Positions 10,087 to 50,900 of a stretch of DNA of 63,461 nucleotides are shown here, in pieces (within the stretch, counting starts at the first letter, position 1; each line of letters begins with the position of its first letter). The notes beneath the pieces are model-generated. The model did not search any database. It had not been told where the DNA came from and saw only the letters and a list, made by a program, of their open reading frames with translations. Position numbers and translations under genes: made by a program. Source of the DNA: Deltaproteobacteria bacterium (GTDB lineage Bacteria; Myxococcota_A; UBA9160; SMWR01); NCBI GenBank assembly GCA_019313245.1, contig JAFDBP010000056.1, positions 1 through 63,461 of the forward strand, written 5' to 3'.

Positions 10087-10292
10087 CCCCTGGGCCCCCG
10101 CCAGTGGAATGCAACGAATCCACCGTACCGGTGTGCGCGGGTGAAGCCCCTGGGCCCCCGCCGGTGGAATGCAACGAATCCACCGTTGGGGGCTGCGCGG
10201 GCAGCCGGTGGAATGCAACGAATCCACCGTTGGGGGCTGCGCGGGCAGCCGGTGGAATGCAACGAATCCACCGCCGGGGTGTGCGCGGGCAG
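10087..10292. repeat. four tandem REP-like units (60, 58, 44, 44 bp), each carrying the hairpin CGGTGGA-N10-TCCACCG
   Basis: The core cc[a/g]gtggaatgcaacgaatccaccg occurs at 10101, 10161, 10205 and 10249. Units 1-2 also repeat cccctgggcccccgcc. Units 2-4 repeat g(g)ggctgcgcgggcag / gtgtgcgcgggcag. The array ends exactly at the exbD stop codon (10293-10295). Confidence 0.9.
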
Positions 10293-35378: not shown

Positions 35379-35761
35379 TCGAAAAACTCCCTCTGCCACG
35401 CCACTTGCCTATGGTTCTGCCTCCGAATCCATCGTCTCTACGGGGCCAAATGTTGAGATTTCCTGCCGGTGCATCGAGCGCGGCGTGGGAGCTGGCAGCA
35501 ATCGCGCACCCGTAGAGAATTCGGATCGGACTGGAACCGAAAATTCCGGCGAATCCAGACCTCGCGTGGGAGGCTCGATCCCGCCCGCCCGATTGCGGCC
35601 GCCGGCCGGACCCGGGATCGCATCCCTTCGCGCTTGACGACCGGAAACCAGCGCGATTCAATCTCAGGCCCGATCGTCCATACCGGCTGGAAACCGACTC
35701 CGGCCCAAACGCGCGACCATCAAGGCCGGCGACGAGCCCCGGCCGACACGGAGCAGCCATC

Positions 35762-37048
35762 ATGTCGAGCAACTCGGAACTGTTGAAGCGCCGCCAGGCC
35801 GCCATCCCCGCAGGCCTCGGAACCATGCATTCGGTCTTCTGCGAGCGCGCAGCGAACGCGGAACTCTGGGATGTGGAGGGCAAGCGATACATCGATTTCG
35901 CGGCCGGCATCGCGGTCCTGAATACAGGTCACCTGCACCCGAAGGTGAAGGCGGCCGTTACCGCCGAGCTCGAGAATATGAGCCACGTGTGTTTCCAGGT
36001 GACGCCCTACGAGCGCTACGTCCAGGTCGCCGAGCGGCTGAACGCGCTCGTCCCCGGCGATACGCCCAAGAAGACGCTGCTGCTCTCGTCGGGCGCCGAG
36101 GCGGTCGAGAATGCGGTCAAGATCGCCCGCGCCCACACCGGGCGCTCCGGAGTGATCGCATTCAGTGGCGGTTTCCACGGGCGCACGCTCTTCGCGCTCG
36201 CCCTCACCGGCAAGGTCTTCCCCTACAAGGCGGGCTTCGGCCCCCTCTCCCCGGAGGTCTTCCACGCCCCCTACCCGATCGAGTACCTCGGGATCAGCGT
36301 CGACGCCGCACTCGCGGCGCTCGACCGCCTGTTTGCGAGCGATATCGATCCCGCGCGCGTGGCCGCGATCATCATCGAGCCCGTGCTGGGCGAAGGCGGC
36401 TTCTACCCGGCCCCGCCCGAGTTCCTGCAAGCGCTCCGACGCGTCTGTGACCAGCACGGCATCGTCATGATCATCGACGAAATCCAGACGGGCTTCGGGC
36501 GCACGGGACGCATGTTCGCGTCCGAGTACGCGGACGTCGAAGCCGACCTGATGACGACGGCCAAGAGCCTCGCGGGCGGCTTCCCGCTCTCGGCGGTCAC
36601 CGGCAAAGCCCAAATCATGGACGGACCGCCCCCGGGCGGCCTCGGCGGTACCTATGCGGGTTCGCCGCTTTCGTGCGCGGCCGCACTCGCCGCGATCGGC
36701 GTGGTCGAAGAGGAGAAGCTCGCCGAGCGCGCATTGCGAATCGGCGACCTGATCTCCAAGCGGGCCAAGTCGCTGTCCGAAGAACCCGCCGGGGCGTGCA
36801 TCGGCGACATCCGCCACCTGGGTGCGATGGCCGCGATCGAACTCGTGACCGACCGCAAGACGCGCGCGCCCGACGCCGAGCTCACCAAGGCCCTCGTGCA
36901 GAAGGCCGCCACCAACGGGCTGATCCTGCTCTCGTGCGGGATCCGCGGCAACGTGGTGCGCTTCCTGCCGCCGCTCACGTCGAGCGACGAACTCGTCAAC
37001 GAGGCGCTCGACATCGTGCGGGAGTCGCTGCTGGAGCTGCGCGGCTAG
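35762..37048 (+). CDS. gabT: 4-aminobutyrate--2-oxoglutarate aminotransferase
   Basis: Near-colinear with the E. coli GabT as I recall it. Blocks: DFAAGIAVLNTGHLHPKV, TLLLSSGAEAVENAVKIAR, IAFSGGFHGRT, IIDEIQTGFGRTG and TTAKSLAGG (PLP lysine). Confidence 0.9.
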   Translation: MSSNSELLKRRQAAIPAGLGTMHSVFCERAANAELWDVEGKRYIDFAAGIAVLNTGHLHPKVKAAVTAELENMSHVCFQVTPYERYVQVAERLNALVPGDTPKKTLLLSSGAEAVENAVKIARAHTGRSGVIAFSGGFHGRTLFALALTGKVFPYKAGFGPLSPEVFHAPYPIEYLGISVDAALAALDRLFASDIDPARVAAIIIEPVLGEGGFYPAPPEFLQALRRVCDQHGIVMIIDEIQTGFGRTGRMFASEYADVEADLMTTAKSLAGGFPLSAVTGKAQIMDGPPPGGLGGTYAGSPLSCAAALAAIGVVEEEKLAERALRIGDLISKRAKSLSEEPAGACIGDIRHLGAMAAIELVTDRKTRAPDAELTKALVQKAATNGLILLSCGIRGNVVRFLPPLTSSDELVNEALDIVRESLLELRG

Positions 37049-37100
37049 GTTCGCTCGACTCGCGATCGCTGCGTGCCAGAGATTTGAGTGACGCCTTGCT

Positions 37101-37170
37101 CGGGGGCCGGGACGGGAGAGCTACTCGCTCCAACCCCATGTCGCTCGCAGCTCTCCCGTCCCGGCCCCCG
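37101..37170. repeat. hairpin element A: 20+2-bp perfect GC-rich stem around a conserved 28-nt core
   Basis: Arms cgggggccgggacgggagag (37101-37120) and ctctcccgtcccggcccccg (37151-37170) are exact reverse complements. The loop is ctACTCGCTCCAACCCCATGTCGCTCGCAG. Located 53 nt after the gabT stop. Confidence 0.9.
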
Positions 37171-37238
37171 GCGTAGCCACTTGCCGGCGCGTGAAAGAAA
37201 ACCACCGCGCCGAAGGCCCTCTTCCGCCACGAGCGTCA

Positions 37239-37311
37239 CTGGGGAGCGGTAGCGAGAGGCCTGCGAGCGACATGGGGTTGGAGCGAGTGGGCCTCTCGCT
37301 ACCGCTCCCAG
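37239..37311. repeat. hairpin element B: unrelated 19-bp (+bulge+2) stem around the reverse complement of the element-A core
   Basis: Arms ggggagcggtagcgagaggc (37241-37260) and gcctctcgctaccgctccc (37291-37309). The loop ctgcgagcgacatggggttggagcgagtgg is the reverse complement of the element-A loop (28/28 core identity). Located 131 nt after the minus-strand hydrolase stop. Confidence 0.9.
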
Positions 37312-37441
37312 GCAACCGACCCTCGCAAACCGGGGTTGCCGTGCAGCGGACGCATCCCCGTCGACCGCGTAACTCTCGATGACGACGGATCAACAAGCGG
37401 AATGACTGCCTGTCGCGAAATCCGCAGCGCGTACCGGATGC

Positions 37442-39520
37442 TCACTGGAAGTCTCGGGGAATGGTCTCCTTCCAGGTCTTCTCCCGAATCTTCCGATCTT
37501 CCTCGAACAGGCGTCTCGTGTAGGTGTAGTAGAAATTCTCACGGTCGCTTCGGAAGTCGAGGACGCCCTGCCAGACCAGGTTCCGGCCACCGACCTGCAC
37601 GGCCCGCTTCATCTCGCTCGTAACCGACGCGGCTTCGGGGTGCGCGTCCTGCGCCTCGTAGACGATCTCGTCGTCCTGGCTGATCGATCCCCAGGGAAAT
37701 TCGTTCCTGCCCGCGTTCCTTGCCACCACCTTCGTCGCCGCGCGCGGCACGTCCCGTTCGATCGTCGTGACTTCGCTGTATCCCGAAGCCGTGACATCGA
37801 TGACGCTGCGATGGCCGGCCAGCTTCGGGTCTTCCGCAGGCGGCAGGAAGTTCGGCGCGGGGCGATCTTCGTAGGGCACGACCGGGAGCTCGACGCGCGT
37901 GGGATTGTTTCCGCCGAGCTTCAGGTGCGTCGTCATCGGATCGGGGCTCGGCCAGATCATCGGCCACTGGGCGTTGTTGATCGAGAGCCGGATGCGATGC
38001 CCCTTCGGAAAGATCCAGGAGGTGAAGCGCAACTCGATCTCCATCGGGTAGATCCGACCCGGTTCCATCGGTTCCGGATTCTCGGCCGAATTGCGCTGCG
38101 CCCCGTTGAAGCCCGCCCACGAGGTCTGGGTCACCGTGCCGTCGGGCGCGACATCCGAGAGGCGCACGAACCAGCGCGCCATCGGGGCGTCGGCAGATGC
38201 GTTGAGCGTCACCCGAGGCATGCCCAGGATTTCGAGATCCTCCTCGAGCGGGTCCGTGTCGTAGACGAGGCTGTAGCTGTCGATCGGTCTCTGGTCCAGC
38301 ACGATCTCCCCGGACCAGAGGCCATTTTCGACGCCGACGGTCGGGACGTATTTCAGTTCGTGGGTGCCGCTCTCGGAAGCCGCGTCGCCGAGAGAGCGGT
38401 CCGGTTGCGGGTACAGCTTCCGCGTGCGCGCGCGAGCGAGCGGCCAGCCCTCTTCGAAGCGCCACTGTCCGGGCACTTCCTCCAACCCGGGATCCGGCGG
38501 GTGCCAATCGCGGACGAAGACCGCGAAGCTCGGCTCGTCCACGATCCCCGTGTCGCGACCCTTGAGCCAGTGATCGAACCAGCGAACCGCCTCGTTGCGC
38601 CACTCGATGTGCGGCTTCGGGTAACCGTTGTGGGGCAGCGCGTGCGCCCAGGGTCCGATGATCGCCTTCTTCGGCACCTTCAGGTGCTCGATCATGCGCA
38701 GCAGACTGTCGGGATATTGGTCATACCAACCGCTGATGACGAAGGTCGGGATCTCGATCGCGTCGTAGCGCTCGTTGAGCGAAGATCGGTTCCAGAACGG
38801 CCCGTCGCGCTGCTGCCGCTTGAAGTTCAGCAGCCAGGGTGTCGTCTCGAAACGCTCCACGAAGTAGGCCTCGTCGATGATGAAATCCGGCGCAGCGGGC
38901 AGCGAGTTCTCGAGGTCCTGGGCGATCTCGTAGGTGTCGATGCAGAGTTGGCCGTCGATGTAGTGGACGTCGTCCTGGAATAGATCGTCCGTGGCCATGA
39001 TCGCGACGATGGCCTTGAGGGCGGGCGGCCGCCGCATCGCGAGGTGGATGGAGTTGAAGCCACCCCAGGAGATGCCGAACATCCCGACGTCACCCGTCGA
39101 AAAGGGCTGCTTCGAGAGCCAGTCGATTGCGCTTTCGGCGTCGCGCTGCTCCTGCTCGGAGTACTCGTACTCGACGAGCGTTCCCTCGCTGCTGCCGGTT
39201 CCGCGGATGTCGACGCGCGCGACCGCGTAGCCGCGGCGAACGAAGTACGAATAGAGCGCGTGATTTCGGCCGCGGTCTTCGACCTTGCGGTACGGGAGAT
39301 ATTCCAGCAGCACCGGGAATCGCTGCCCGGCCTTGCCGCCCTGCGGCAGGAAGAGGTCCGCCGACAGCCGCACGCCGTCCGGCATCGGGATCCACGCCTC
39401 CCGCCGCGTCATCTCGTATTCTGGCGGAGAGGGTTCGGCGGCCGCTGCAACGCCTCCCCAGGCCCCCACCGGGATCGATAGGATCAGAACCGCAACGAAA
39501 TTCTCGAGAGCGCAGCGCAT
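37442..39520 (-). CDS. CocE/NonD-family hydrolase (X-Pro dipeptidyl-peptidase S15 family), secreted
   Basis: Signal peptide, then PVLLEYLPYRK, RVDIRGTGSSEG and nucleophile context GMFGISWGGFNS. Long C-terminal beta-sandwich region. Confidence 0.88.
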   Translation of the reverse strand: MRCALENFVAVLILSIPVGAWGGVAAAAEPSPPEYEMTRREAWIPMPDGVRLSADLFLPQGGKAGQRFPVLLEYLPYRKVEDRGRNHALYSYFVRRGYAVARVDIRGTGSSEGTLVEYEYSEQEQRDAESAIDWLSKQPFSTGDVGMFGISWGGFNSIHLAMRRPPALKAIVAIMATDDLFQDDVHYIDGQLCIDTYEIAQDLENSLPAAPDFIIDEAYFVERFETTPWLLNFKRQQRDGPFWNRSSLNERYDAIEIPTFVISGWYDQYPDSLLRMIEHLKVPKKAIIGPWAHALPHNGYPKPHIEWRNEAVRWFDHWLKGRDTGIVDEPSFAVFVRDWHPPDPGLEEVPGQWRFEEGWPLARARTRKLYPQPDRSLGDAASESGTHELKYVPTVGVENGLWSGEIVLDQRPIDSYSLVYDTDPLEEDLEILGMPRVTLNASADAPMARWFVRLSDVAPDGTVTQTSWAGFNGAQRNSAENPEPMEPGRIYPMEIELRFTSWIFPKGHRIRLSINNAQWPMIWPSPDPMTTHLKLGGNNPTRVELPVVPYEDRPAPNFLPPAEDPKLAGHRSVIDVTASGYSEVTTIERDVPRAATKVVARNAGRNEFPWGSISQDDEIVYEAQDAHPEAASVTSEMKRAVQVGGRNLVWQGVLDFRSDRENFYYTYTRRLFEEDRKIREKTWKETIPRDFQ

Positions 39521-41240: not shown

Positions 41241-41714
41241 ATGACCGCCACGGCACGCGATGTGATGCAAACCGAAGTACTCGCACTCAACGAAAGCGAC
41301 AGCCTTCTCGAAGCGCATCAGTTCTTCGTGCGCCACGACATCACCGGCGCACCGGTCGTCAACGAAGACGGGCGGCTCGTCGGTGTCGTGAGCATTCGCG
41401 ATCTCATTCGGGCCGAGGACGAAGACCACGACGTGAGCCGCACCGTCGCGGACTACTTCTGCGAGTCCGCGGGCTACGCGAGCCTCAGCATCGATCTGGA
41501 CCATTTGAGAGAAGGGCTGTCGGAAATCCCCGTCAGCGAAGTGATGACGCGGGATCCGATCTGCGTCGCGCCAGACAGCCCGATCAATGAGGTCGCGGCG
41601 CTGATCCGCAAGCATCGAATCCACCGCGTTCTGGTCGCGTCTCCCGGCAGCGAGGATCGGCTGGAAATTGCGGGAATCATTTCGCTGTTCGATCTGGTTT
41701 CGCTGCTGGAGTAG
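41241..41714 (+). CDS. CBS-domain pair protein
   Basis: ATG 41241 with GGGGAG upstream. Two CBS units: ARDVMQTEVLAL...GAPVVNEDGRLVGVVSIRDL and VSEVMTRDPICV...HRVLV...IAGIISLFDLV. Confidence 0.85.
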   Translation: MTATARDVMQTEVLALNESDSLLEAHQFFVRHDITGAPVVNEDGRLVGVVSIRDLIRAEDEDHDVSRTVADYFCESAGYASLSIDLDHLREGLSEIPVSEVMTRDPICVAPDSPINEVAALIRKHRIHRVLVASPGSEDRLEIAGIISLFDLVSLLE

Positions 41715-41820
41715 CCGCAAACCGCACGGCAGCCCCCGCTCGTGCGGTCTCGATCGCGCGATGGGCGGCGGCGCGTTGCCGCCGCCCATCCTGCCTTCGC
41801 CTTTGGCGACGAATTCCCGG

Positions 41821-45151: not shown

Positions 45152-47917
45152 TCAATCGCTGGCGTTTACGTCGCGGAGCCACTTGGCGATGGGCCCACCC
45201 TGCTCGAACGAGTCGGCGCTCAACGGCCGGCAGAAGAAGTAACCTTGAGCGAAACCACAGCCGAGCTCGCTCAACATCTCCTTCTGCTCCCGGGTCTCTA
45301 CGCCCTCCGCGACGACTTCCAGGTGCAGGCTTTCGGCCATCGAATTGATCGCGCGCAGCAGCGAGATGCCGTCCTCGTGCCCGACCGCTCCGTGAACGAA
45401 TGCGCGATCGATCTTGAGCACGTCGAAGGGGAAGCTCTGCAGATAGCTCAGGGACGAATAACCGGTGCCAAAATCGTCGATGCAGAGCCGAACGCCGAAC
45501 TCCTTGATCGTGTTGAAGATCGCCGTCACCCGCTCGACATCGTCGAGCAGCACTCGCTCGGTTACTTCGATCTCCAGATACTCGGCGCGCAATCCCGATT
45601 GCGACAGTGCATTTCGGATCGACTCCACCGCATCGCCGCGATCCACTTCGCGCGGCGAAAGATTCACCGCGAGCCGCAGCGTTGTCCAACCGGCGTCGTG
45701 CCACGCCTTGACCTGGCGGCAAGCGGTTTCGAGCACCCATGACCCGATCACCACGATCAACCCACTTCGCTCTGCAATTGGCACGAATTCGGCTGGCGAA
45801 ACCATACCCAGCACGGGATTTTCCCAGCGAAGCAGCGCTTCCACGCCGACCATCCTGCCTTCTGGAAGCGCGACGATCGGCTGGTAGTAGACTTCGAATT
45901 CGTTCAGCTCAAGCGCCTTCCAGAGTTGCGTCTCCACCTGGAATCTGCGATTCGCGCTTTCGTTCATCTCTTCCGTGAAGAAATTCACTGTGTTACCGCC
46001 GCCCTGCTTGCTGCGATACATCGCGGCATCCGCATTCCGAAGCAGATCTTCGTCGTTGTCGGAGTCATTGGGGTAGATCGCGGCACCAATACTCGCAGTC
46101 ATGACGATGTCCTGTTTGTTCAACTCCAATGGCGCCGAGACCTGTTCGAGAATGCGCTTCGCGATGGCATCGACATCGGCAGCCGATTCGATTTCGAGCA
46201 GAATCACGGCGAATTCGTCGCCACCCAGCCTCGCGGCGGTATCCGCATCTCGGAGTCCCTGATTGATGCGCGCGGCTACGTGGCGAAGCGCTTCGTCGCC
46301 AGCGGCGTGACCGAGTGTGTCATTGATCTTCTTGAACTGGTCGAGATCGATAAACAACAAGCCAACGGACGTGTGCTCGCGCTCGGCCCGGACCAGTGCG
46401 CGGCGAAATCGATCTCTCAACAAATATCGATTCGGCAGCTTCGTGAGCATGTCGTAATTGGCCTGGTGCGCGATCACCGCTTCGGATTTCTTGCGCTCCG
46501 TCATATCGTTGAAGACCACGACGACGCGCTCTATTTCCGAATGGTCGTCGAGCGCACAGCCAACCGAAACCCAGGCGGGGATCGACCTCCCCGCGCTGCA
46601 TCGAATCCAGATCTCGCCTTCCCACTTTCCGGCCTGGGCCACCTGCGAAATGACCGAACCGAAGAAACCCTTCGCGTGCCGGTTTGTAGCCAGGATATCC
46701 GCACTCCTACCCAACACATCGACGCGACTCAAGCCCGTTGCCTCGGTGAATGCGGAATTGACATCCAGGATGATTCCAGCGGAATTCGCGATCACGATCG
46801 ATTCCGTAGCAATATTGAAAACTGCAGCAGCGCGGCGAAGACCCTCCTCACTCTTGCGGCGCTCCATCACCTCATTTTCGAGCTGCTTCAGCATGTTGCC
46901 AAATTCTCGGCGCAGTTCGCCGATCTCACCACCGACATCCGAATCCAATTCGACGTCGAGTTCGCTCGTCTTTCGGAAAGTTCGCAGTTGACACGACAGC
47001 GCACCCAGTGGCGCAATGATCGCTCGGTTGAGTGGAACCAAGATGATGAATACGAGAATTCCGCCCTGGAAAACGACCCAGAGTGCGCAGAGTTGGGCAA
47101 TGAAATTCGCAGATTTCGTCAACTCACGAGGCAGCGTCACACCCACGATGATCGAGGGATTCCCATCCAAATCTTCGAGTATCTGGTAGGCGTCGATTTC
47201 ATCTGCCTCGGTATCGACAATCGTTACCACAGAGCCCGGTTCGCCTCTCTCTATCGAGATGAGCGCCCCTTCCGGAATCTCGGGATCCCCGGCGAGCCAG
47301 ATGTGGAACTCGGATTCGACTTGTTTTCCCACTCGTTGAATCAAATCCGCGTCGAGTGCCCGGCCCATGATGACGTGACCGCGCGAGGGGCCCTCGTCTG
47401 TACTCGTGAGAATATGGCGCGATGCGACGATCACCGGCCCGGTCTGGGTCAGCATGATTCCGCTGGTCGAATCAGTCAGTTCCCCCTCTGCGAGAAGTGG
47501 ATGCGAGAGGTCCCAGTGGCCCTGCGGAATCTCGGCAAGCGAAACCAACTCACCGGTCATGACGTCGTAGATCGGGCCGGAAACCACTTCGCCCGAGTTG
47601 TCGACGATGATCAGCCAGTTGATGCCCGAGGTATGAAGTACATCGATGGTCAGGTTGTCTTCGAAGAACGCTCGACTCCGGGTTACCACGAAATCGCAGG
47701 TTGCATCCCATGAAGAATACTCATACACCAGACTCTCGAGGTGGTTGATTTCGCGCTCGACTGCCTGAGCAATCTGAGTCAGATTTCTTTGAATCGATTT
47801 CTGTTCGAAGCTTTCGAAGGAGGGATCGATCCAATTGTGCTTGATCGCATAGCCAAAGCCGATGTTGGCAAGCGTGAAGGCCGCGACGATCAGGGCCGCC
47901 TTGTTGATCAGGGTCAC
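45152..47917 (-). CDS. CHASE4-HAMP-PAS-GGDEF-EAL membrane sensor (c-di-GMP cyclase/phosphodiesterase)
   Basis: N-terminal TM, periplasmic CHASE4-type block YEYSSWDATCDFV, second TM plus HAMP, one PAS, GGDEF with RDAD I-site, and EAL domain (EALLRW, DDFGTGYSSLSYL, KIDRAF, EGVET). Confidence 0.92.
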   Translation of the reverse strand: MTLINKAALIVAAFTLANIGFGYAIKHNWIDPSFESFEQKSIQRNLTQIAQAVEREINHLESLVYEYSSWDATCDFVVTRSRAFFEDNLTIDVLHTSGINWLIIVDNSGEVVSGPIYDVMTGELVSLAEIPQGHWDLSHPLLAEGELTDSTSGIMLTQTGPVIVASRHILTSTDEGPSRGHVIMGRALDADLIQRVGKQVESEFHIWLAGDPEIPEGALISIERGEPGSVVTIVDTEADEIDAYQILEDLDGNPSIIVGVTLPRELTKSANFIAQLCALWVVFQGGILVFIILVPLNRAIIAPLGALSCQLRTFRKTSELDVELDSDVGGEIGELRREFGNMLKQLENEVMERRKSEEGLRRAAAVFNIATESIVIANSAGIILDVNSAFTEATGLSRVDVLGRSADILATNRHAKGFFGSVISQVAQAGKWEGEIWIRCSAGRSIPAWVSVGCALDDHSEIERVVVVFNDMTERKKSEAVIAHQANYDMLTKLPNRYLLRDRFRRALVRAEREHTSVGLLFIDLDQFKKINDTLGHAAGDEALRHVAARINQGLRDADTAARLGGDEFAVILLEIESAADVDAIAKRILEQVSAPLELNKQDIVMTASIGAAIYPNDSDNDEDLLRNADAAMYRSKQGGGNTVNFFTEEMNESANRRFQVETQLWKALELNEFEVYYQPIVALPEGRMVGVEALLRWENPVLGMVSPAEFVPIAERSGLIVVIGSWVLETACRQVKAWHDAGWTTLRLAVNLSPREVDRGDAVESIRNALSQSGLRAEYLEIEVTERVLLDDVERVTAIFNTIKEFGVRLCIDDFGTGYSSLSYLQSFPFDVLKIDRAFVHGAVGHEDGISLLRAINSMAESLHLEVVAEGVETREQKEMLSELGCGFAQGYFFCRPLSADSFEQGGPIAKWLRDVNASD

Positions 47918-47957
47918 GGCCTCGCCTCTCCCCGGGGTTGTCGACGGCTGCTCGAGT

Positions 47958-47982
47958 CGCTTTCGACGAATACTCGAAAGCG
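47958..47982 (-). terminator. intercistronic hairpin CGCTTTCGA-N7-TCGAAAGCG between the two tandem sensor genes
   Basis: Perfect 9-bp stem, 5 nt after the upstream gene stop (47987-47989) and 41 nt before the downstream start (47917). No U-tract, so its role as terminator, attenuator or processing site is unresolved. Confidence 0.4.
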
Positions 47983-47986
47983 CGGA

Positions 47987-50900
47987 TCAGTCATCGCGAA
48001 CCTTCAGCGCGCGAAGCCAGCCCTGTTGCCCTTCTCCAACCGTCGATGCCTCGGCATCCAGATCGACGATCGGACCTCCGATTCCGATTCGCGCGGCGCT
48101 CAGCGGAGCACAGAAGTAGTAACCCTGCGCAAATCCGCACCCCAGCTCACACAACAAGTCGAATTGCTCGACGGTTTCCACCCCCTCCGCGATGACCTGA
48201 AGATCGAGACTCTCGGCCATCGAAATGATCGCCCGAAGCAGCGAAACACCGTTGGCGTGGCGAGACGCATCGCAAACGAACGCGCGATCGATCTTGAGCA
48301 CGTCGAATGGGTAATTGCGCAGATAGCTCAACGACGAGTAGCCCGTTCCGAAGTCATCGACGCAGAGCCGAACTCCGAGATCCTTGATTGCGCGAAATGC
48401 GGAGCCCGCAGTCTCGACATCATCCAGCAGAACGCGCTCCGTGACTTCGACTTCCAGAAACTGCGGCGCCAACCCACTCTTGGCGAGTGCGTTGGAGATC
48501 GAATCGATCGCGTCGCCGCGATCGACCTCACGCGGTGAAAGATTCACCGCGACCCGAAGATCGGACCATCCCGCTTCCTGCCATTCCTTGACCTGGCGAC
48601 AAGCCGTTTCCAGTACCCAAGCACCAATCGAAACGATGATGCCAGTGCTCTCCGCAACCGGAATGAACTCACCCGGATCGACCAAACCCAATTCCGAGTT
48701 GTGCCAGCGCAGCAGAACCTCCACTCCAACCATTCGGCCATCCGGGAGCGAGACGATGGGCTGGTAGTGGAGTTCGAACTCCTCGACCTCGATCGCGCGC
48801 TGCAACTGCAACTCGACCTGCATTCGGCGCATCGCGCGCTCGTTCATTTCGGCAGTAAAGAATTCGATCGAGTTTCCACCGCTGTTCTTGCTGCGATACA
48901 TCGCGATATCGGCATCGCGCAGGAGCCCCGTTTCGTCTTCGGAATCCGAGGGAAATATCGAAATGCCAATGCTCGCGGTTATCAGCATGTCCTGTCCCTG
49001 GACACTCATCGGAATTGCCATTTCCGCGAGGACCCGCTTCGCAACCTGCTCCGCGTCTACGGGGTCGCGAAGCTTTGGAACGATCACGGCAAATTCGTCG
49101 CCCCCAACGCGCGCAGCGGTGTCCACATCGCGAATACTCTGCTTGATCCGCTGCGCGGTCAGTCGCAATACATCGTCACCCGCCGAGTGGCCGAGCGTAT
49201 CATTGACTTTCTTGAAACCGTCCAGGTCGATGAATATCAGCGCGACGCCCTGCCCGCTCCGCCCGGCGCGCAGCGTCTCCTGGGCGAGTCGATCGATGAA
49301 CAACGCGCGATTTGGAATTCCAGTCAGCAAATCATAGGTGGCTTGCCGTGCGATGACCTCCTCGGCATTCTTCCGTTCCGTCATATCGTTGAAGACCGCA
49401 ACGATCTGCTCGGTGGACGACTCTCGGCCGAGCGTTCGCCCAATCGAAGCCCACGTTGGAATGGTCATTCCGTCTTTGTGGCGGATCCAGATTTCGCCTT
49501 CCCACTTTCCAGACTGCTCGACCTCTGCGGCGATGCCTTGATAAAAATTGAAATCGTGAAGTCCCGAATTCAAGATTTCTGCCTTTTCTCCAATCACCTC
49601 ATCTTGCTGGTGTCCGGTGATGGTGGAAAACGCGGAGTTGACGTCCACGATGTTTCCAAAGGGATCGGCGATTACGATCGCTTCGTTGGCGGTTTCGAAA
49701 ACCGCGGCGGCGCGACGCATAGCCTCTTCGGACCGATAACGCTCAGTGACATCGCTAACCGTTCCATATACGCGAAGGGGTCGACCCTCAGCGTCTCTCT
49801 CGACGTTCCAGAGGATGTGGTGGTGCTGCACGTCGCCGGTCTCGACCACCACGCGCGCTTCGGCGCCCTTCGATTCCGAGCTGCCTTCGATCAATGCGCG
49901 CAGGGCTCCCTCCACGCGATCCTTGTCATCTCGGTGAATGCTCGATCGAATCTGCTCGCTGGTCGGTGGCCCCGCATCGATCTGCCTGCCGTAGATTCGG
50001 TAGAGTTCATCAGACCACCACCAGACTCCACTCGCCAGGTCGATTTCCCAGCTTCCGACCTGCGCGACCTGCTGGGCTTCCTGCAGGCGCTCTTCACTGT
50101 GGCGCAGCGCATCTTCGCTCTTGCGGCGATCGTCGATATGCCGACCCAGCTGCTTGAGCATGCTGCCGAATTCGCGACTGAGCTCGCCGATTTCGTCGTT
50201 TCGCGCCATCGATACCTGGACCGAAAGGTCGTTGGTGCGGCGGATCGACCGCAATTGTTCGGTCAAGACACCGAGAGGAGCGATGATCGCTTTGTGCAGT
50301 GGCGCCATGATCAGGAATGCGAGAACGGCTCCCTGGATGAGATACCAGAGAAGACTCAGGCGGTTGACGTCAGCGGCTCGCTGGGTGATTTCCCGGGGAA
50401 GGCTCACGCGAAGAACGAAGGACGGAACACCCGCAATGTCCTTCAACAGCGTATAGACATAGAGGTGATCGTCATCGTCGCTCGGCGTCTCGTGGTACGG
50501 AGTAGTCTCATATCCGATCAGCGCTTCCCGCATGGATTGCGATATTGCAGCGTCCGAAAGCAACAGAACTTCGAGATTGATGCTGGCGCGTTTGGCGAGG
50601 CCCGCGATGAAATTCGCGTCGAACCGCCTCCCCATGATGACCCGGCCGCGTGACGGCCCTTCGTCAATACTGGTGAGAATATCGCGAGCAGCAACCAGCA
50701 TCGGGCCTTCACTCGTCGCCATCAAACCAACGATCGGCTCCACCTGTGTTTCACCGAGCAGAAGTGGATGCGATTCGCTCCATTTCTCATGAGGGATCTC
50801 TGGAATCCCCAGCGGCTCCCCAGTCTGAATGTCCAACACCGGTTCCGAGAGCACCTTTCCGCTCGAGTCAACGACGATCGCCCAGTCGAGTACGGTAGTT

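What the first reader, a model, noticed from the sequence alone, without database searches (positions are those of the whole stretch)
37101..37311. Two hairpins between convergent genes share an identical 28-nt loop in opposite orientation but have unrelated, individually perfect stems
Element A (37101-37170) has 20/20 complementary arms cgggggccgggacgggagag / ctctcccgtcccggcccccg around the loop ctACTCGCTCCAACCCCATGTCGCTCGCAG. Element B (37239-37311) has arms ggggagcggtagcgagaggc / gcctctcgctaccgctccc. These are unrelated in sequence to the arms of A and form 19 bp plus a bulge plus 2 bp. The loop of B is the exact reverse complement of the 28-nt core of A. Pairing is therefore kept while stem sequence is free, and the unpaired core is kept. 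That is the opposite of MITE/REP elements (conserved arms) and of attC sites (conserved ends, variable centre). The flanking genes converge: gabT ends at 37048 and the CocE/NonD hydrolase ends at 37442. Each transcript would therefore first meet a hairpin presenting the same RNA loop, ACUCGCUCCAACCCCAUGUCGCUCGCAG. A third hairpin (cggcgcg / cgcgccg, 37185-37212, A-rich 14-nt loop) lies between them. This could be a protein- or RNA-recognised 3'-end element, or a novel dispersed repeat family.
Basis: seen in the sequence. Interest (0 to 1): 0.7.

Follow-up and report, generated by a model that had tools for sequence, protein, structure and literature searches.

The report
Double-hairpin intergenic repeat of Myxococcota
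The two hairpins are the two halves of one copy of a previously undescribed repeat that sits behind genes in uncultured myxobacteria; its stems change freely but stay perfectly paired while its loop stays constant, which points to a protein that reads the loop.

Summary
Hairpin A has 22/22 bp arms and hairpin B has 20/20 bp arms. They share an identical 28-mer in opposite orientation, and it occurs nowhere else in the window.

It is not a local curiosity. The two hairpins form one ~260-bp composite element (about 37078-37335) of a dispersed family. I found about 125 hairpin units in about 80 loci from Myxococcota MAGs and estuary/sediment metagenomes.

Each unit has a 20-27-bp stem and a C-rich loop with the core CTCNAACCCCATGTCGC. 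Two units face each other tail-to-tail, 130-135 bp apart loop to loop, across a conserved linker.

Stem covariation is overwhelming and almost purely Watson-Crick: 20 of 21 pairs show compensated changes and G:U pairs are rare.

Copies lie only in 3' intergenic regions: 18 convergent sites, 9 tandem, 0 divergent. Close relatives have an empty site, with 4 nt between the same two genes. Orthologous copies keep the loop (90-94%) while flanks drift (~68%).

The closest known kinds are REPIN/BIME elements. However, the GTAG tag is absent, the conserved part is the loop, and no transposase was found.

Best reading: a new REPIN/BIME-like variant whose loop is read by an unknown protein. Whether that happens on DNA or RNA is unresolved. 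Interest 0.55.

The parts
35762..37048 (+). Upstream flanking gene, a 4-aminobutyrate aminotransferase-like protein (gabT). Its stop codon lies 52 nt before hairpin A.
   Evidence: ORF list; Pfam Aminotran_3 on the identical protein in L118; homologues named 4-aminobutyrate aminotransferase.
37078..37100 (+). Outer flank of unit A (GATTTGAGTGACGCCTTGCTC). It is the weakly conserved left end of the composite element (family consensus GATTCA..GCGTGGG..GGTGCTCGTT). The boundary is approximate.
   Evidence: Composite alignments; the CM hit for unit A spans 37088-37184 at 95.2 bits; sequence left of about 37078 has no family similarity.
37101..37122 (+). Unit A, 5' arm of the stem (CGGGGGCCGGGACGGGAGAGCT).
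   Evidence: 22/22 complementary to 37149-37170; the columns covary across the family.
37123..37148 (+). Unit A loop, carrying the invariant family core CTCCAACCCCATGTCGC.
   Evidence: consensus cGCTCcAACCCCATGTCGCtC; composition C 48%, G 18%.
37149..37170 (+). Unit A, 3' arm of the stem.
37171..37241 (+). Linker between the two units. It ends in GCGTCACTGGGG, the inner flank of unit B.
   Evidence: The motif is conserved in composites from many loci. RNAalifold predicts no consensus helix here.
37242..37261 (-). Unit B (read on the minus strand), 3' arm of the stem.
   Evidence: 20/20 complementary to 37290-37309; the CM hit for unit B spans 37227-37323 (-) at 93.5 bits.
37262..37289 (-). Unit B loop. 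On the minus strand it holds the same 28-mer as A (37261-37288). This is an A-type loop inside a unit with B-type flanks, probably a loop-to-loop conversion.
   Evidence: In 24 other loci the partner unit has the loop GGGCTCNAACCCCATGTCGCCC, while the flanks of the window's unit B match the B consensus.
37290..37309 (-). Unit B, 5' arm of the stem.
37310..37335 (-). Outer flank of unit B (the plus strand reads AGGCAACCGACCCTCGCAAACCGG; family consensus CCCGAGCAACCAACCCCCGCAAA). It is the right end of the composite. The boundary is approximate.
   Evidence: Sequence from 37336 to 37441 is unique to this lineage.
37442..39520 (-). Downstream flanking gene, convergent: an S15-family (CocE/NonD, X-Pro dipeptidyl-peptidase-like) hydrolase.
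   Evidence: Pfam Peptidase_S15 and PepX_C.

Best explanation
Positions about 37078-37335 are one copy of a composite, two-fold symmetric, non-coding repeat element. It belongs to a dispersed family found in uncultured Myxococcota.

Anatomy. Each half (a 'unit' of about 97 nt) has four parts: a weakly conserved outer flank, a 20-27-bp stem, a 25-28-nt C-rich loop with the invariant core CTCNAACCCCATGTCGC, and an inner flank. Two units stand tail-to-tail, 130-135 bp apart loop to loop, joined by a conserved linker.

How it most likely works (inferred). It behaves like a REPIN/BIME-type non-autonomous element. The stems fold as hairpins when the DNA is single-stranded, and also in RNA read from either direction. 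The helix serves only as a rigid scaffold, so its sequence may drift as long as both strands stay Watson-Crick paired. The loop, displayed single-stranded, is the sequence-specific handle for a trans-acting protein. That protein is most plausibly a structure-specific ssDNA transposase or recombinase that copies, homogenises and occasionally rearranges the elements.

Because the element is symmetric, either convergent transcript acquires the same very stable hairpin at its 3' end. That probably explains why copies are tolerated, or even kept, only behind genes.

Shown: family membership, architecture, covariation, location, the empty site, and in-situ conservation of the loop. Inferred: hairpin formation in vivo, the existence and nature of a loop-binding factor, and the mode of spread.
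For: Dispersed family. The 20-mer core hits 13 true loci in 4 Myxococcota/'Deltaproteobacteria' MAGs, 9 of them in one MAG and many at contig ends. The 18-mer hits about 65 true metagenome loci. A covariance model finds about 125 units.

Composite architecture. A(+) followed by B(-) with loop-to-loop spacing of 130-135 nt occurs in 23 of 25 inverted pairs, and arrays alternate in orientation. The linker and flanks are conserved.

Structure. In a gapless 32-unit alignment the helix is 93.1% paired. Twenty of 21 pairs have double-sided changes. There are 196 compensated cells against 52±6 in shuffles, and slid controls are only 41-56% paired. RNAalifold on 18 composites gives 29 compensated pairs.

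Watson-Crick only. About 10 G:U pairs occur in 670 cells. In a census of 71 copies there are 19 G:T and 37 A:C mismatches against 61 other mismatches, so wobble pairs are not favoured. This fits DNA hairpins or a constraint on both strands.

Location. All copies are intergenic. After collapsing orthologues to 53 site groups, those with both neighbours known are convergent 18, tandem 9 and divergent 0.

Insertion/deletion dynamics. Relatives with 89%-identical gabT and the same synteny have only 4 nt between the two stop codons (L119, L120, L125). Others have 84-157 nt of unrelated sequence, and a 92% relative has the element. Truncated or rearranged copies break in or next to the loop (L122, L055, L066, L004/L014).

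Persistence and constraint. Orthologous sites in genomes with 4-fold-site identity of about 0.69 keep the loop at 0.90 (B units, not fully free of ascertainment: detection required the 13-mer core within 3 mismatches) to 0.94, the arms at 0.81-0.85, and the flanks at 0.67-0.73. The same site can carry quite different, fully compensated stems (L019/L055/L009, L083/L085/L059).

Analogy from the literature. REPINs are inverted doublets of an invariant 16-mer at fixed spacing with compensatory changes (PMC3116915). BIMEs are regularly spaced REPs in alternating orientation (PMC2817692). ssDNA transposases and TnpA_REP read loops and irregularities of folded hairpins (PMC8266576).
Against: - No transposase or other recurrent gene lies next to the elements among 329 neighbouring proteins.
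- The GTAG tag that defines RAYT-mobilised REPs is absent (2/107), and there is no CGTC tag.
- No target-site duplication could be defined. The filled site in the window also carries about 135 nt of unique extra sequence.
- Conservation of the loop at orthologous sites over long divergence is more than a purely selfish, decaying element would show. It argues for a host-level function or continual conversion.
- Hairpin-containing contigs occur in metatranscriptomes, so an RNA role is possible.
- Ascertainment: loci were found through an exact loop core, so conservation of the A-type loop is partly built in.
- Metagenome assemblies can be chimeric at repeats (for example L095), and the gene calls used for context come from my own GC3-based caller.
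Confidence: 0.55

Rival explanations
1. Host RNA element. The composite is a bidirectional 3'-end module for mRNAs. Each transcript, from either side, first forms a long perfect hairpin whose C-rich loop (CUCNAACCCCAUGUCGC) is bound by an RNA-binding factor, for example Rho through its YC-rich single strand or a dedicated 3'-end protein. The result would be termination or protection against 3' exonucleases. The requirement to fold in both transcripts would explain the Watson-Crick-only stems.
For: - Exclusive location behind genes, with 18 of 27 resolved sites convergent and none divergent.
- Two-fold symmetry, so both directions see the same loop first.
- Loop and stems conserved in situ above the level of neutral flanks.
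- Loop composition of C 48% and G 18%, which is rut-like.
- Hairpin plus linker sequences from several copies are present in metatranscriptome assemblies.
- REPs are reported to aid Rho-dependent termination (cited in PMC2817692).
Against: - No U-tract follows either hairpin, and no terminator-like site is scored.
- G:U pairs are as rare as other mismatches, which is unusual for RNA-selected helices.
- Close relatives do without the element at the same gene pair, with a 4-nt spacer.
- Multi-copy spread, truncated copies and subfamilies sharing stems look like mobile DNA.
- The RNA evidence is from contigs only, without strand information, and DNA carry-over is possible.
Confidence: 0.27
2. Classical MITE. 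The element is a deletion derivative of a DDE-type insertion sequence. The two inverted units would be its terminal inverted repeats, and a full-length IS elsewhere in the genome would mobilise it by cut-and-paste.
For: - The two ends are inverted copies of one another.
- Size is about 260 bp.
- The element is multi-copy and intergenic.
- Presence/absence polymorphism occurs.
Against: - No target-site duplication is recognisable.
- The ends are fuzzy, whereas the most conserved parts are internal loops.
- Each 'TIR' is itself a long perfect hairpin with covarying arms, which DDE transposases do not require.
- No related transposase gene lies between widely spaced units.
- Copies persist at orthologous sites over large divergence.
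Confidence: 0.07
3. Independent small RNA gene or genes. The spacer would encode a stand-alone structured non-coding RNA of about 250 nt with two hairpins, expressed from its own promoter.
For: - Strong structure (z-score -7.3 on the plus strand and -6.5 on the minus strand).
- Covariation.
- Presence in metatranscriptome contigs.
Against: - No promoter-like site.
- No Rfam family at the gathering threshold, and only generic hairpin (miRNA-precursor) noise below it.
- No orientation preference relative to neighbouring genes beyond what the symmetry gives.
- Dozens of copies per lineage with different stems.
- Dispensable at the same locus in relatives.
Confidence: 0.05
4. A one-off local inverted duplication or a chance palindrome with no wider meaning.
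For: Within the 63-kb window the 28-mer occurs only in these two places.
Against: More than 100 related units occur elsewhere with the same architecture. Independent contigs confirm the sequence.
Confidence: 0.01

Closest known systems
[quoted passage not shown]
   Same: Both are inverted doublets of an invariant short motif (a 16-mer there, a 17-mer here) at fixed spacing (71 bp there, 130-135 bp here). Both are extragenic and multi-copy, show compensatory changes that keep hairpins, persist at orthologous sites and are inherited vertically. Both also show occasional absence at a site in relatives.
   Different: Here the invariant motif sits in a 25-28-nt loop of a local 20-27-bp hairpin, not in the paired part. 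The stems are the variable part. There is no GTAG tag (2/107), no bulge and no RAYT gene seen. Units are about 97 nt rather than 20-40 nt.
BIMEs (bacterial interspersed mosaic elements) of Enterobacteria, Pseudomonas and Stenotrophomonas (PMC2817692, PMC3333891)
   Same: Both have regularly spaced palindromic units in alternating orientation with specific linker motifs. Heterodimers of two unit types occur (Y/Z there, A/B here), as do larger alternating arrays (L083, L015). Both lie at 3' ends of genes.
   Different: The units here are much longer, with large conserved loops. Binding of IHF, gyrase or Pol I is unknown. The family occurs in a different phylum, and no sequence similarity is expected or seen.
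GTAG-/CGTC-tagged REP superfamilies (PMC3733652)
   Same: Both are small palindromic extragenic repeats that often form head-to-head or tail-to-tail dimers. CGTC REPs, like this family, have no identified dedicated transposase.
   Different: Tagged REPs have 4-5-nt loops and an unpaired tag at one end. This family has neither tag and has 25-28-nt loops.
Hairpin origins and nick sites of HUH enzymes (rolling-circle replication origins, IS200/IS605 ends). This comparison rests on my own knowledge and on the discussion in PMC8266576.
   Same: In both, a conserved single-stranded loop or irregularity is presented on a stem whose sequence is free but paired, and recognition happens on folded ssDNA. 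Here, breakpoints of rearranged copies fall in or beside the loop.
   Different: No Rep or TnpA gene is adjacent. The element is chromosomal and dispersed, and no cleavage has been shown.
Integron attC sites
   Same: Both are structure-specific, sequence-variable palindromes located behind genes and read as folded single strands.
   Different: attC sites have conserved ends (R''/R') and a variable centre, and they lie in one-directional cassette arrays next to intI. Here the centre is conserved, the R boxes are absent, and the genes are mostly convergent.

Membership tests
REP / REPIN (RAYT-associated) | Short palindromic repeat, extragenic, in many copies per genome | tested here: met
   All true copies are intergenic. 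At least 9 exact-core copies occur in one MAG, many at contig ends, and about 125 units were found in the loci held. The true copy number per genome was not measured.
REP / REPIN (RAYT-associated) | Conserved unpaired GTAG (or CGTC) tetranucleotide at one end of the palindrome | tested here: not met
   GTAG occurs within 18 nt of the stem in 2/107 units (5' side) and 1/107 (3' side). GACG/CGTC is not consistently present.
REP / REPIN (RAYT-associated) | Inverted doublet of the conserved motif at fixed spacing, able to fold | tested here: met
   23 of 25 inverted pairs have 130-135 nt loop-to-loop spacing. The window's 74-nt regions are 74% complementary.
REP / REPIN (RAYT-associated) | The conserved sequence is the palindrome (stem) itself, with a short loop of 3-5 nt | tested here: not met
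   The stems vary at 20 of 21 pairs, while the 25-28-nt loop is the conserved part.
REP / REPIN (RAYT-associated) | A single-copy RAYT (Y1 HUH) gene flanked by the repeats in the same genome | not testable with these tools
   Only windows of about 8 kb or less around hits are held. None of 329 neighbouring proteins forms a recurrent non-orthologous family, and the genes between spaced units are a membrane protein and a methyltransferase-like protein.
BIME | Regularly spaced units in alternating orientation with defined linker motifs | tested here: met
   Arrays occur in L083 (+ - +) and L046.
BIME | Binding of IHF, DNA gyrase or Pol I | not testable with these tools
   This needs biochemistry. 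I saw no clear IHF consensus in the linker by eye.
MITE | Terminal inverted repeats plus target-site duplication | tested here: inconclusive
   The inverted halves are present. No duplication is visible when the filled site (window) is compared with the empty sites (L119, L125), and the ends are fuzzy.
MITE | A related autonomous IS with the same ends | not tested
   No whole genome of a carrier was available. None was seen in the loci held.
Integron attC | R''(RYYYAAC)/R'(GTTRRRY) core sites at the base, a variable centre, and one-directional cassette arrays | tested here: not met
   The flank consensus (GGTTGCTCGGG / CCCAGCGAA) does not fit the core sites. The centre is conserved, and the genes are mostly convergent.
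Intrinsic (Rho-independent) terminator | GC-rich hairpin with a short loop, followed by a U-tract | tested here: not met
   The scan of 36800-37700 found 0 sites. The loops are 26-28 nt and no T-run follows either stem on either strand.
Any Rfam 15 RNA family | Score at or above the family's gathering threshold | tested here: not met
   No hit in the window. Only sub-threshold miRNA-precursor models match the bare hairpins.

The most novel reading that the evidence does not exclude
The element is not merely selfish DNA. It would be a host-maintained, two-fold symmetric module whose C-rich loop is the docking site for a dedicated, still unknown protein. That protein could be a new kind of ssDNA transposase or recombinase that reads a long loop instead of the stem or tag, and that also keeps the arms perfectly complementary through intra-hairpin conversion. 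Alternatively it could belong to a new bidirectional 3'-end or termination system of high-GC Myxococcota.
Probability: 0.2. Interest if true: 0.75.

Novelty: new variant of a known kind. Interest (0 to 1): 0.55.

Why it matters
Dispersed palindromic repeats (REP, BIME, REPIN) are known mainly from Gamma- and Alphaproteobacteria. There the paired sequence and a GTAG or CGTC tag are what is conserved.

This family extends the class to uncultured Myxococcota and reverses the usual pattern. The helix is only a scaffold, Watson-Crick on both strands and evolving about as fast as silent sites. A long loop and the distance between two loops are what is kept, even at orthologous sites in genomes whose silent sites are close to saturation.

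That makes it a clean natural case for two questions. What reads a displayed single-stranded loop in bacterial chromosomes? And how are perfect palindromes maintained: by selection on both transcripts, or by arm-to-arm conversion?

Practically, the repeat breaks metagenome assemblies of these organisms. The covariance model built here can flag it.

Tried and rejected
- Rfam, at the gathering threshold and in E-value mode, gave nothing but generic hairpin noise.
- Viral contigs: 18 core matches, all chance hits inside coding sequence, and no element by the covariance model.
- RNA evidence for the window locus: only metagenomic DNA runs and one weak metatranscriptome contig in gabT, and contigs break at the spacer. 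For another copy (L010), metatranscriptome contigs do hold the hairpin and linker, but without strand or end information.
- Strand test by wobble pairs: 19 G:T against 37 A:C, too weak and not independent.
- Orientation test relative to genes: uninformative, because the element is symmetric.
- Search for a transposase between widely spaced units or among neighbours: none found.
- The third hairpin as a conserved structure: not supported by RNAalifold.
- Short ORFs starting at the loop ATG: the frame and stop are not conserved between copies (inspection).
- tRNA-like T-arm in the B-type loop, sigma-54 or sigma-70 promoter, IHF site, CsrA GGA motif and G-quadruplex: each was considered by eye and dropped, because the required positions are not conserved across subfamilies.
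- The CM hit at 41738-41813 is an ordinary GC-rich hairpin, not a family member.
- Target-site duplication: none found.
- Literature: no paper holds the core sequence, and none describes such a repeat in myxobacteria.
Full report
**1. The observation**

Reading 36900-37560 and the repeat finder confirm two perfect hairpins in the 393-nt spacer between two convergent genes.
- Hairpin A has arms 37101-37122 and 37149-37170, 22/22 complementary, with a 26-nt loop.
- Hairpin B has arms 37242-37261 and 37290-37309, 20/20 complementary, with a 28-nt loop.
- The flanking genes are a gabT-like aminotransferase (35762-37048, +) and an S15/CocE-NonD-type hydrolase (37442-39520, -).

The 28-mer ACTCGCTCCAACCCCATGTCGCTCGCAG occurs once on each strand, in the two loops. 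It occurs nowhere else in the window even with 3 mismatches, and 0 matches were expected. These are the only perfect inverted repeats of at least 20 nt with a short spacer in the 63 kb.

The spacer folds far better than shuffles, with z = -7.3 on the plus strand and -6.5 on the minus strand. A second contig from another sample has the same spacer with two SNPs outside the hairpins.

**2. It is a family, not a local oddity**

- An exact 20-mer from the loop hit 14 loci in the species-representative genome set. Thirteen are true copies in four MAGs labelled Myxococcota or 'Deltaproteobacteria'. Nine are in one MAG, and many sit at contig ends, as expected for a repeat that breaks assemblies.
- An 18-mer hit 85 metagenome stretches. 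About 65 carry the same anatomy and about 18 are chance hits without stems.
- A covariance model built from 32 units finds about 125 units in the loci held, and only the two known ones in the window.
- The closest gabT homologue with a taxonomic name (79% identical) is labelled Myxococcales.
- The runs that hold the window sequence are estuary and sediment metagenomes.

**3. Anatomy**

Every unit has a G-rich 5' arm, a loop of the form ..TCG-CTCCAACCCCATGTCGC-TCRCA.., and a complementary 3' arm. The arm sequences differ widely, for example:
- ggggagtcggggggaaggggc
- ggggaccgggacgggagagct
- gggagccacgccgcgagcgcg
- gcgcaagctgctggaaaggatcggcctg

.

Looking downstream showed that units come in pairs. 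An 'A' unit is followed by a second, inverted 'B' unit with the related loop GGGCTCNAACCCCATGTCGCCC. The loop-to-loop distance is 130-135 nt in 23 of the 25 inverted pairs, including the window's; the other two are 125 and 146 nt. Larger arrays alternate in orientation (L083, L046).

The linker (TTGCC.GCGCGTGAAAGAGAACCACCGCAT...GGCGGCCCGATC...GCGTCACTTGGG) and the outer flanks (GATTCA..GCGTGGG..GGTGCTCGTT, and CCCGAGCAACCAACCCCCGCAAA) are conserved in sequence.

The window's copy spans about 37078-37335. The 29 nt to its left and the 106 nt to its right are unique to this lineage.

The window's second unit has B-type flanks but an A-type loop that is identical over 28 nt to its partner's loop. 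I read this as a conversion between the two inverted loops.

However, RNAalifold does not support a consensus helix there.

**4. Structure is selected, and it is Watson-Crick only**

On the gapless MAFFT alignment of 32 units, which was not fitted to any structure, the 21-bp helix behaves as follows:
- 93.1% of cells are paired.
- 20 of 21 pairs show changes on both sides.
- 196 cells are compensated, against 52±6 in shuffles.
- Sliding the partner by 1-3 columns drops pairing to 41-56%.

RNAalifold on 18 whole composites predicts just the two hairpins, with 29 compensated pairs and almost no one-sided changes.

G:U pairs are rare, about 10 of 670 cells. In a census of 71 copies, G:T (19) and A:C (37) mismatches together are fewer than other mismatches (61). 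Helices selected in one RNA strand normally tolerate G:U. Their absence points to DNA hairpins, or to a need to fold on both strands.

**5. Where copies sit**

I used a simple GC3-based gene caller. No true copy lies securely inside a gene; five 'inside a gene' calls look like gene-caller artefacts. After collapsing orthologous loci to 53 site groups, the 27 with both neighbours known are 18 convergent, 9 tandem (6 and 3 in the two orientations) and 0 divergent.

The first hairpin usually starts 15-130 nt after a stop codon. Because the composite is symmetric, its orientation in tandem contexts carries little information.

No U-tract follows the hairpins, and no promoter-like or terminator-like site is scored.

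**6. Gain, loss and persistence**

The gabT/hydrolase pair gives a direct test.

| Relative (gabT identity) | Loci | Spacer between gabT and the next gene |
|---|---|---|
| window population (100%) | window, L118 | 393 nt with the element |
| 92% | L121 | Element present; one loop change at the variable N position and one A:C mismatch in the stem |
| 89%, same synteny | L119, L120, L125 | 4 nt between the two stop codons |
| 87-88% | L126, L127, L129 | 84-157 nt of unrelated sequence, no unit |
| 85% | L122 | Half an A unit that stops at AACCCC, then a yqeY gene, then a B unit |

Other damaged copies also break in or beside the loop (L055, L066). A subfamily carries a 55-nt insert with two mini-hairpins in the loop (L004, L014).

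Many loci, however, are orthologous sites in diverged genomes, with 4-fold-site identity of 0.58-0.85. At such sites:
- flanks are about as diverged as silent sites (0.67-0.73, against a mean of 0.69);
- arms are more conserved (0.81-0.85);
- loops are most conserved (0.90 for B units, detected by proximity but still required to match the 13-mer core within 3 mismatches, and 0.94 for A units).

The same site can carry clearly different stems, each fully compensated (L019/L055/L009; L046/L053; L035/L042; L083/L085/L059). So the elements come and go, but they also persist, and the loop is kept in place.

**7. What it is most likely to be**

These features match the REPIN/BIME kind of element: inverted doublets of an invariant short motif at fixed spacing, compensatory changes, extragenic location behind genes, alternating arrays, heterodimers of two unit types, and long vertical persistence (PMC3116915, PMC2817692, PMC3733652).

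I therefore commit to a non-autonomous, REPIN/BIME-like element. Its hairpins form in single-stranded nucleic acid, and its loop is the recognition handle of a trans-acting protein, most plausibly a structure-specific ssDNA transposase or recombinase. TnpA_REP and IS200/IS605 transposases are known to read loops and irregularities of folded hairpins (PMC8266576).

A secondary consequence is that either convergent transcript ends in the same stable hairpin.

Confidence in this mechanism is 0.55. Confidence that this is a dispersed composite palindromic repeat family is above 0.9.

**8. Why it is not simply a REP**

- The GTAG tag is absent (2/107), and there is no CGTC tag.
- The conserved part is a 25-28-nt loop rather than the stem.
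- Units are about 97 nt.
- No RAYT or any other recurrent gene lies nearby among 329 neighbouring proteins.

Membership in the RAYT-REP family is therefore not claimed. The resemblance is in how it is built and how it behaves.

It is also none of the following:
- an attC site (wrong conserved parts, convergent genes);
- an intrinsic terminator (no U-tract);
- a clear MITE (no target-site duplication, no parent IS);
- an Rfam family.

**9. The main rival (0.27)**

The main rival is a host RNA module for bidirectional 3'-end formation or protection. The C-rich loop (C 48%, G 18%) would be bound by Rho or by a dedicated protein.

In its favour:
- the location of the copies;
- the symmetry of the element;
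- the in-situ conservation of loop and stems;
- the Watson-Crick-only stems, which follow if both transcripts must fold;
- the presence of hairpin-plus-linker sequences from several copies in metatranscriptome assemblies.

Against it:
- the empty site in close relatives;
- the mobile-DNA-like population structure;
- the weakness of the RNA data, which are contigs without strand information and may include DNA carry-over.

The two readings are not exclusive.

**10. Caveats**

- Loci were found through exact matches to the loop, so conservation of the A-type loop is partly built in.
- B-type units were still required to match a 13-mer within 3 mismatches.
- Many loci are orthologous and therefore not independent.
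- Metagenome contigs can be chimeric at repeats. L095 has mismatched arms that look like such a join.
- Gene context rests on my own caller.

**11. Novelty and score**

I found no paper that holds the core sequence or describes such a repeat in myxobacteria.

I rate it a new variant of a known kind. It is REPIN/BIME-like in form and behaviour, but with the conserved and variable parts exchanged and without the defining tag or transposase.

Interest is 0.55. This is a solid, well-supported new repeat family with an unusual conservation pattern. It poses a testable question about a loop-reading factor, but its function is not yet shown.

Noticed in passing
window 10087-10292: An intergenic tandem array with periods of 44 and 60 nt. 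It holds four copies of a small hairpin, GGTGGAATGCAACGAATCCACC, each followed by a G-rich tail (..GGGGGCTGCGCGGGCA). This is a second, unrelated repeat type in the window.
   Followed up: partly
window 46001-50000: GC content drops to 0.57-0.585 against about 0.65 elsewhere. This could be a foreign or otherwise atypical segment.
   Followed up: no
window 41751-41799: A GC-rich hairpin (GATGGGCGGCGGC / GCCGCCGCCCATC, 5-nt loop) just after a stop codon at 41714. The model scored it weakly (16 bits). It is an ordinary terminator-like hairpin, not a family member.
   Followed up: yes
L004 120-180 (-) and L014 about 330-400: Two copies from the same MAG carry the same ~55-nt insert with two mini-hairpins (gaatcc..ggattc and gacgggcc..ggcccgtc) inside the loop, just 5' of the core motif. 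The loop therefore tolerates large additions on that side.
   Followed up: partly
L122 4290-5020: Downstream of an 85%-identical gabT, half an A unit ends at AACCCC. A complete yqeY gene follows, and then an inverted B unit. It looks as if a gene sits inside a split composite element.
   Followed up: partly
L074 vs L075 (element at L074 140-380): The flanking genes are identical at all 935 four-fold sites compared. Yet the ~260-bp element differs by three transitions, two of which create G:T mismatches in stems. This could be locally raised mutation or assembly noise in a repeat.
   Followed up: no
L045 (1484-nt contig), units at 121-216 and 1388-1482: Two identical direct copies of an A unit lie 1267 nt apart. 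They bracket a lower-GC gene for a 253-aa methyltransferase-like protein. This may be a circular-assembly artefact or a gene bracketed by elements.
   Followed up: partly
L095 971-1069: This unit's 5' arm matches one subfamily and its 3' arm matches another, leaving many mismatches. It is probably an assembly join made at the shared loop, and a warning about chimeras in these contigs.
   Followed up: no
window 35400-35761 compared with L119 1109-3000 and L126 645-2500: Relatives carry an aldehyde dehydrogenase gene between the GGDEF gene and gabT. It is missing in the window's lineage, so this neighbourhood is rearranged in several ways among close relatives.
   Followed up: no
L039 2222-2492: The A-to-B distance is 270 nt instead of about 133, and the linker motif is present twice. 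The linker has been duplicated.
   Followed up: no
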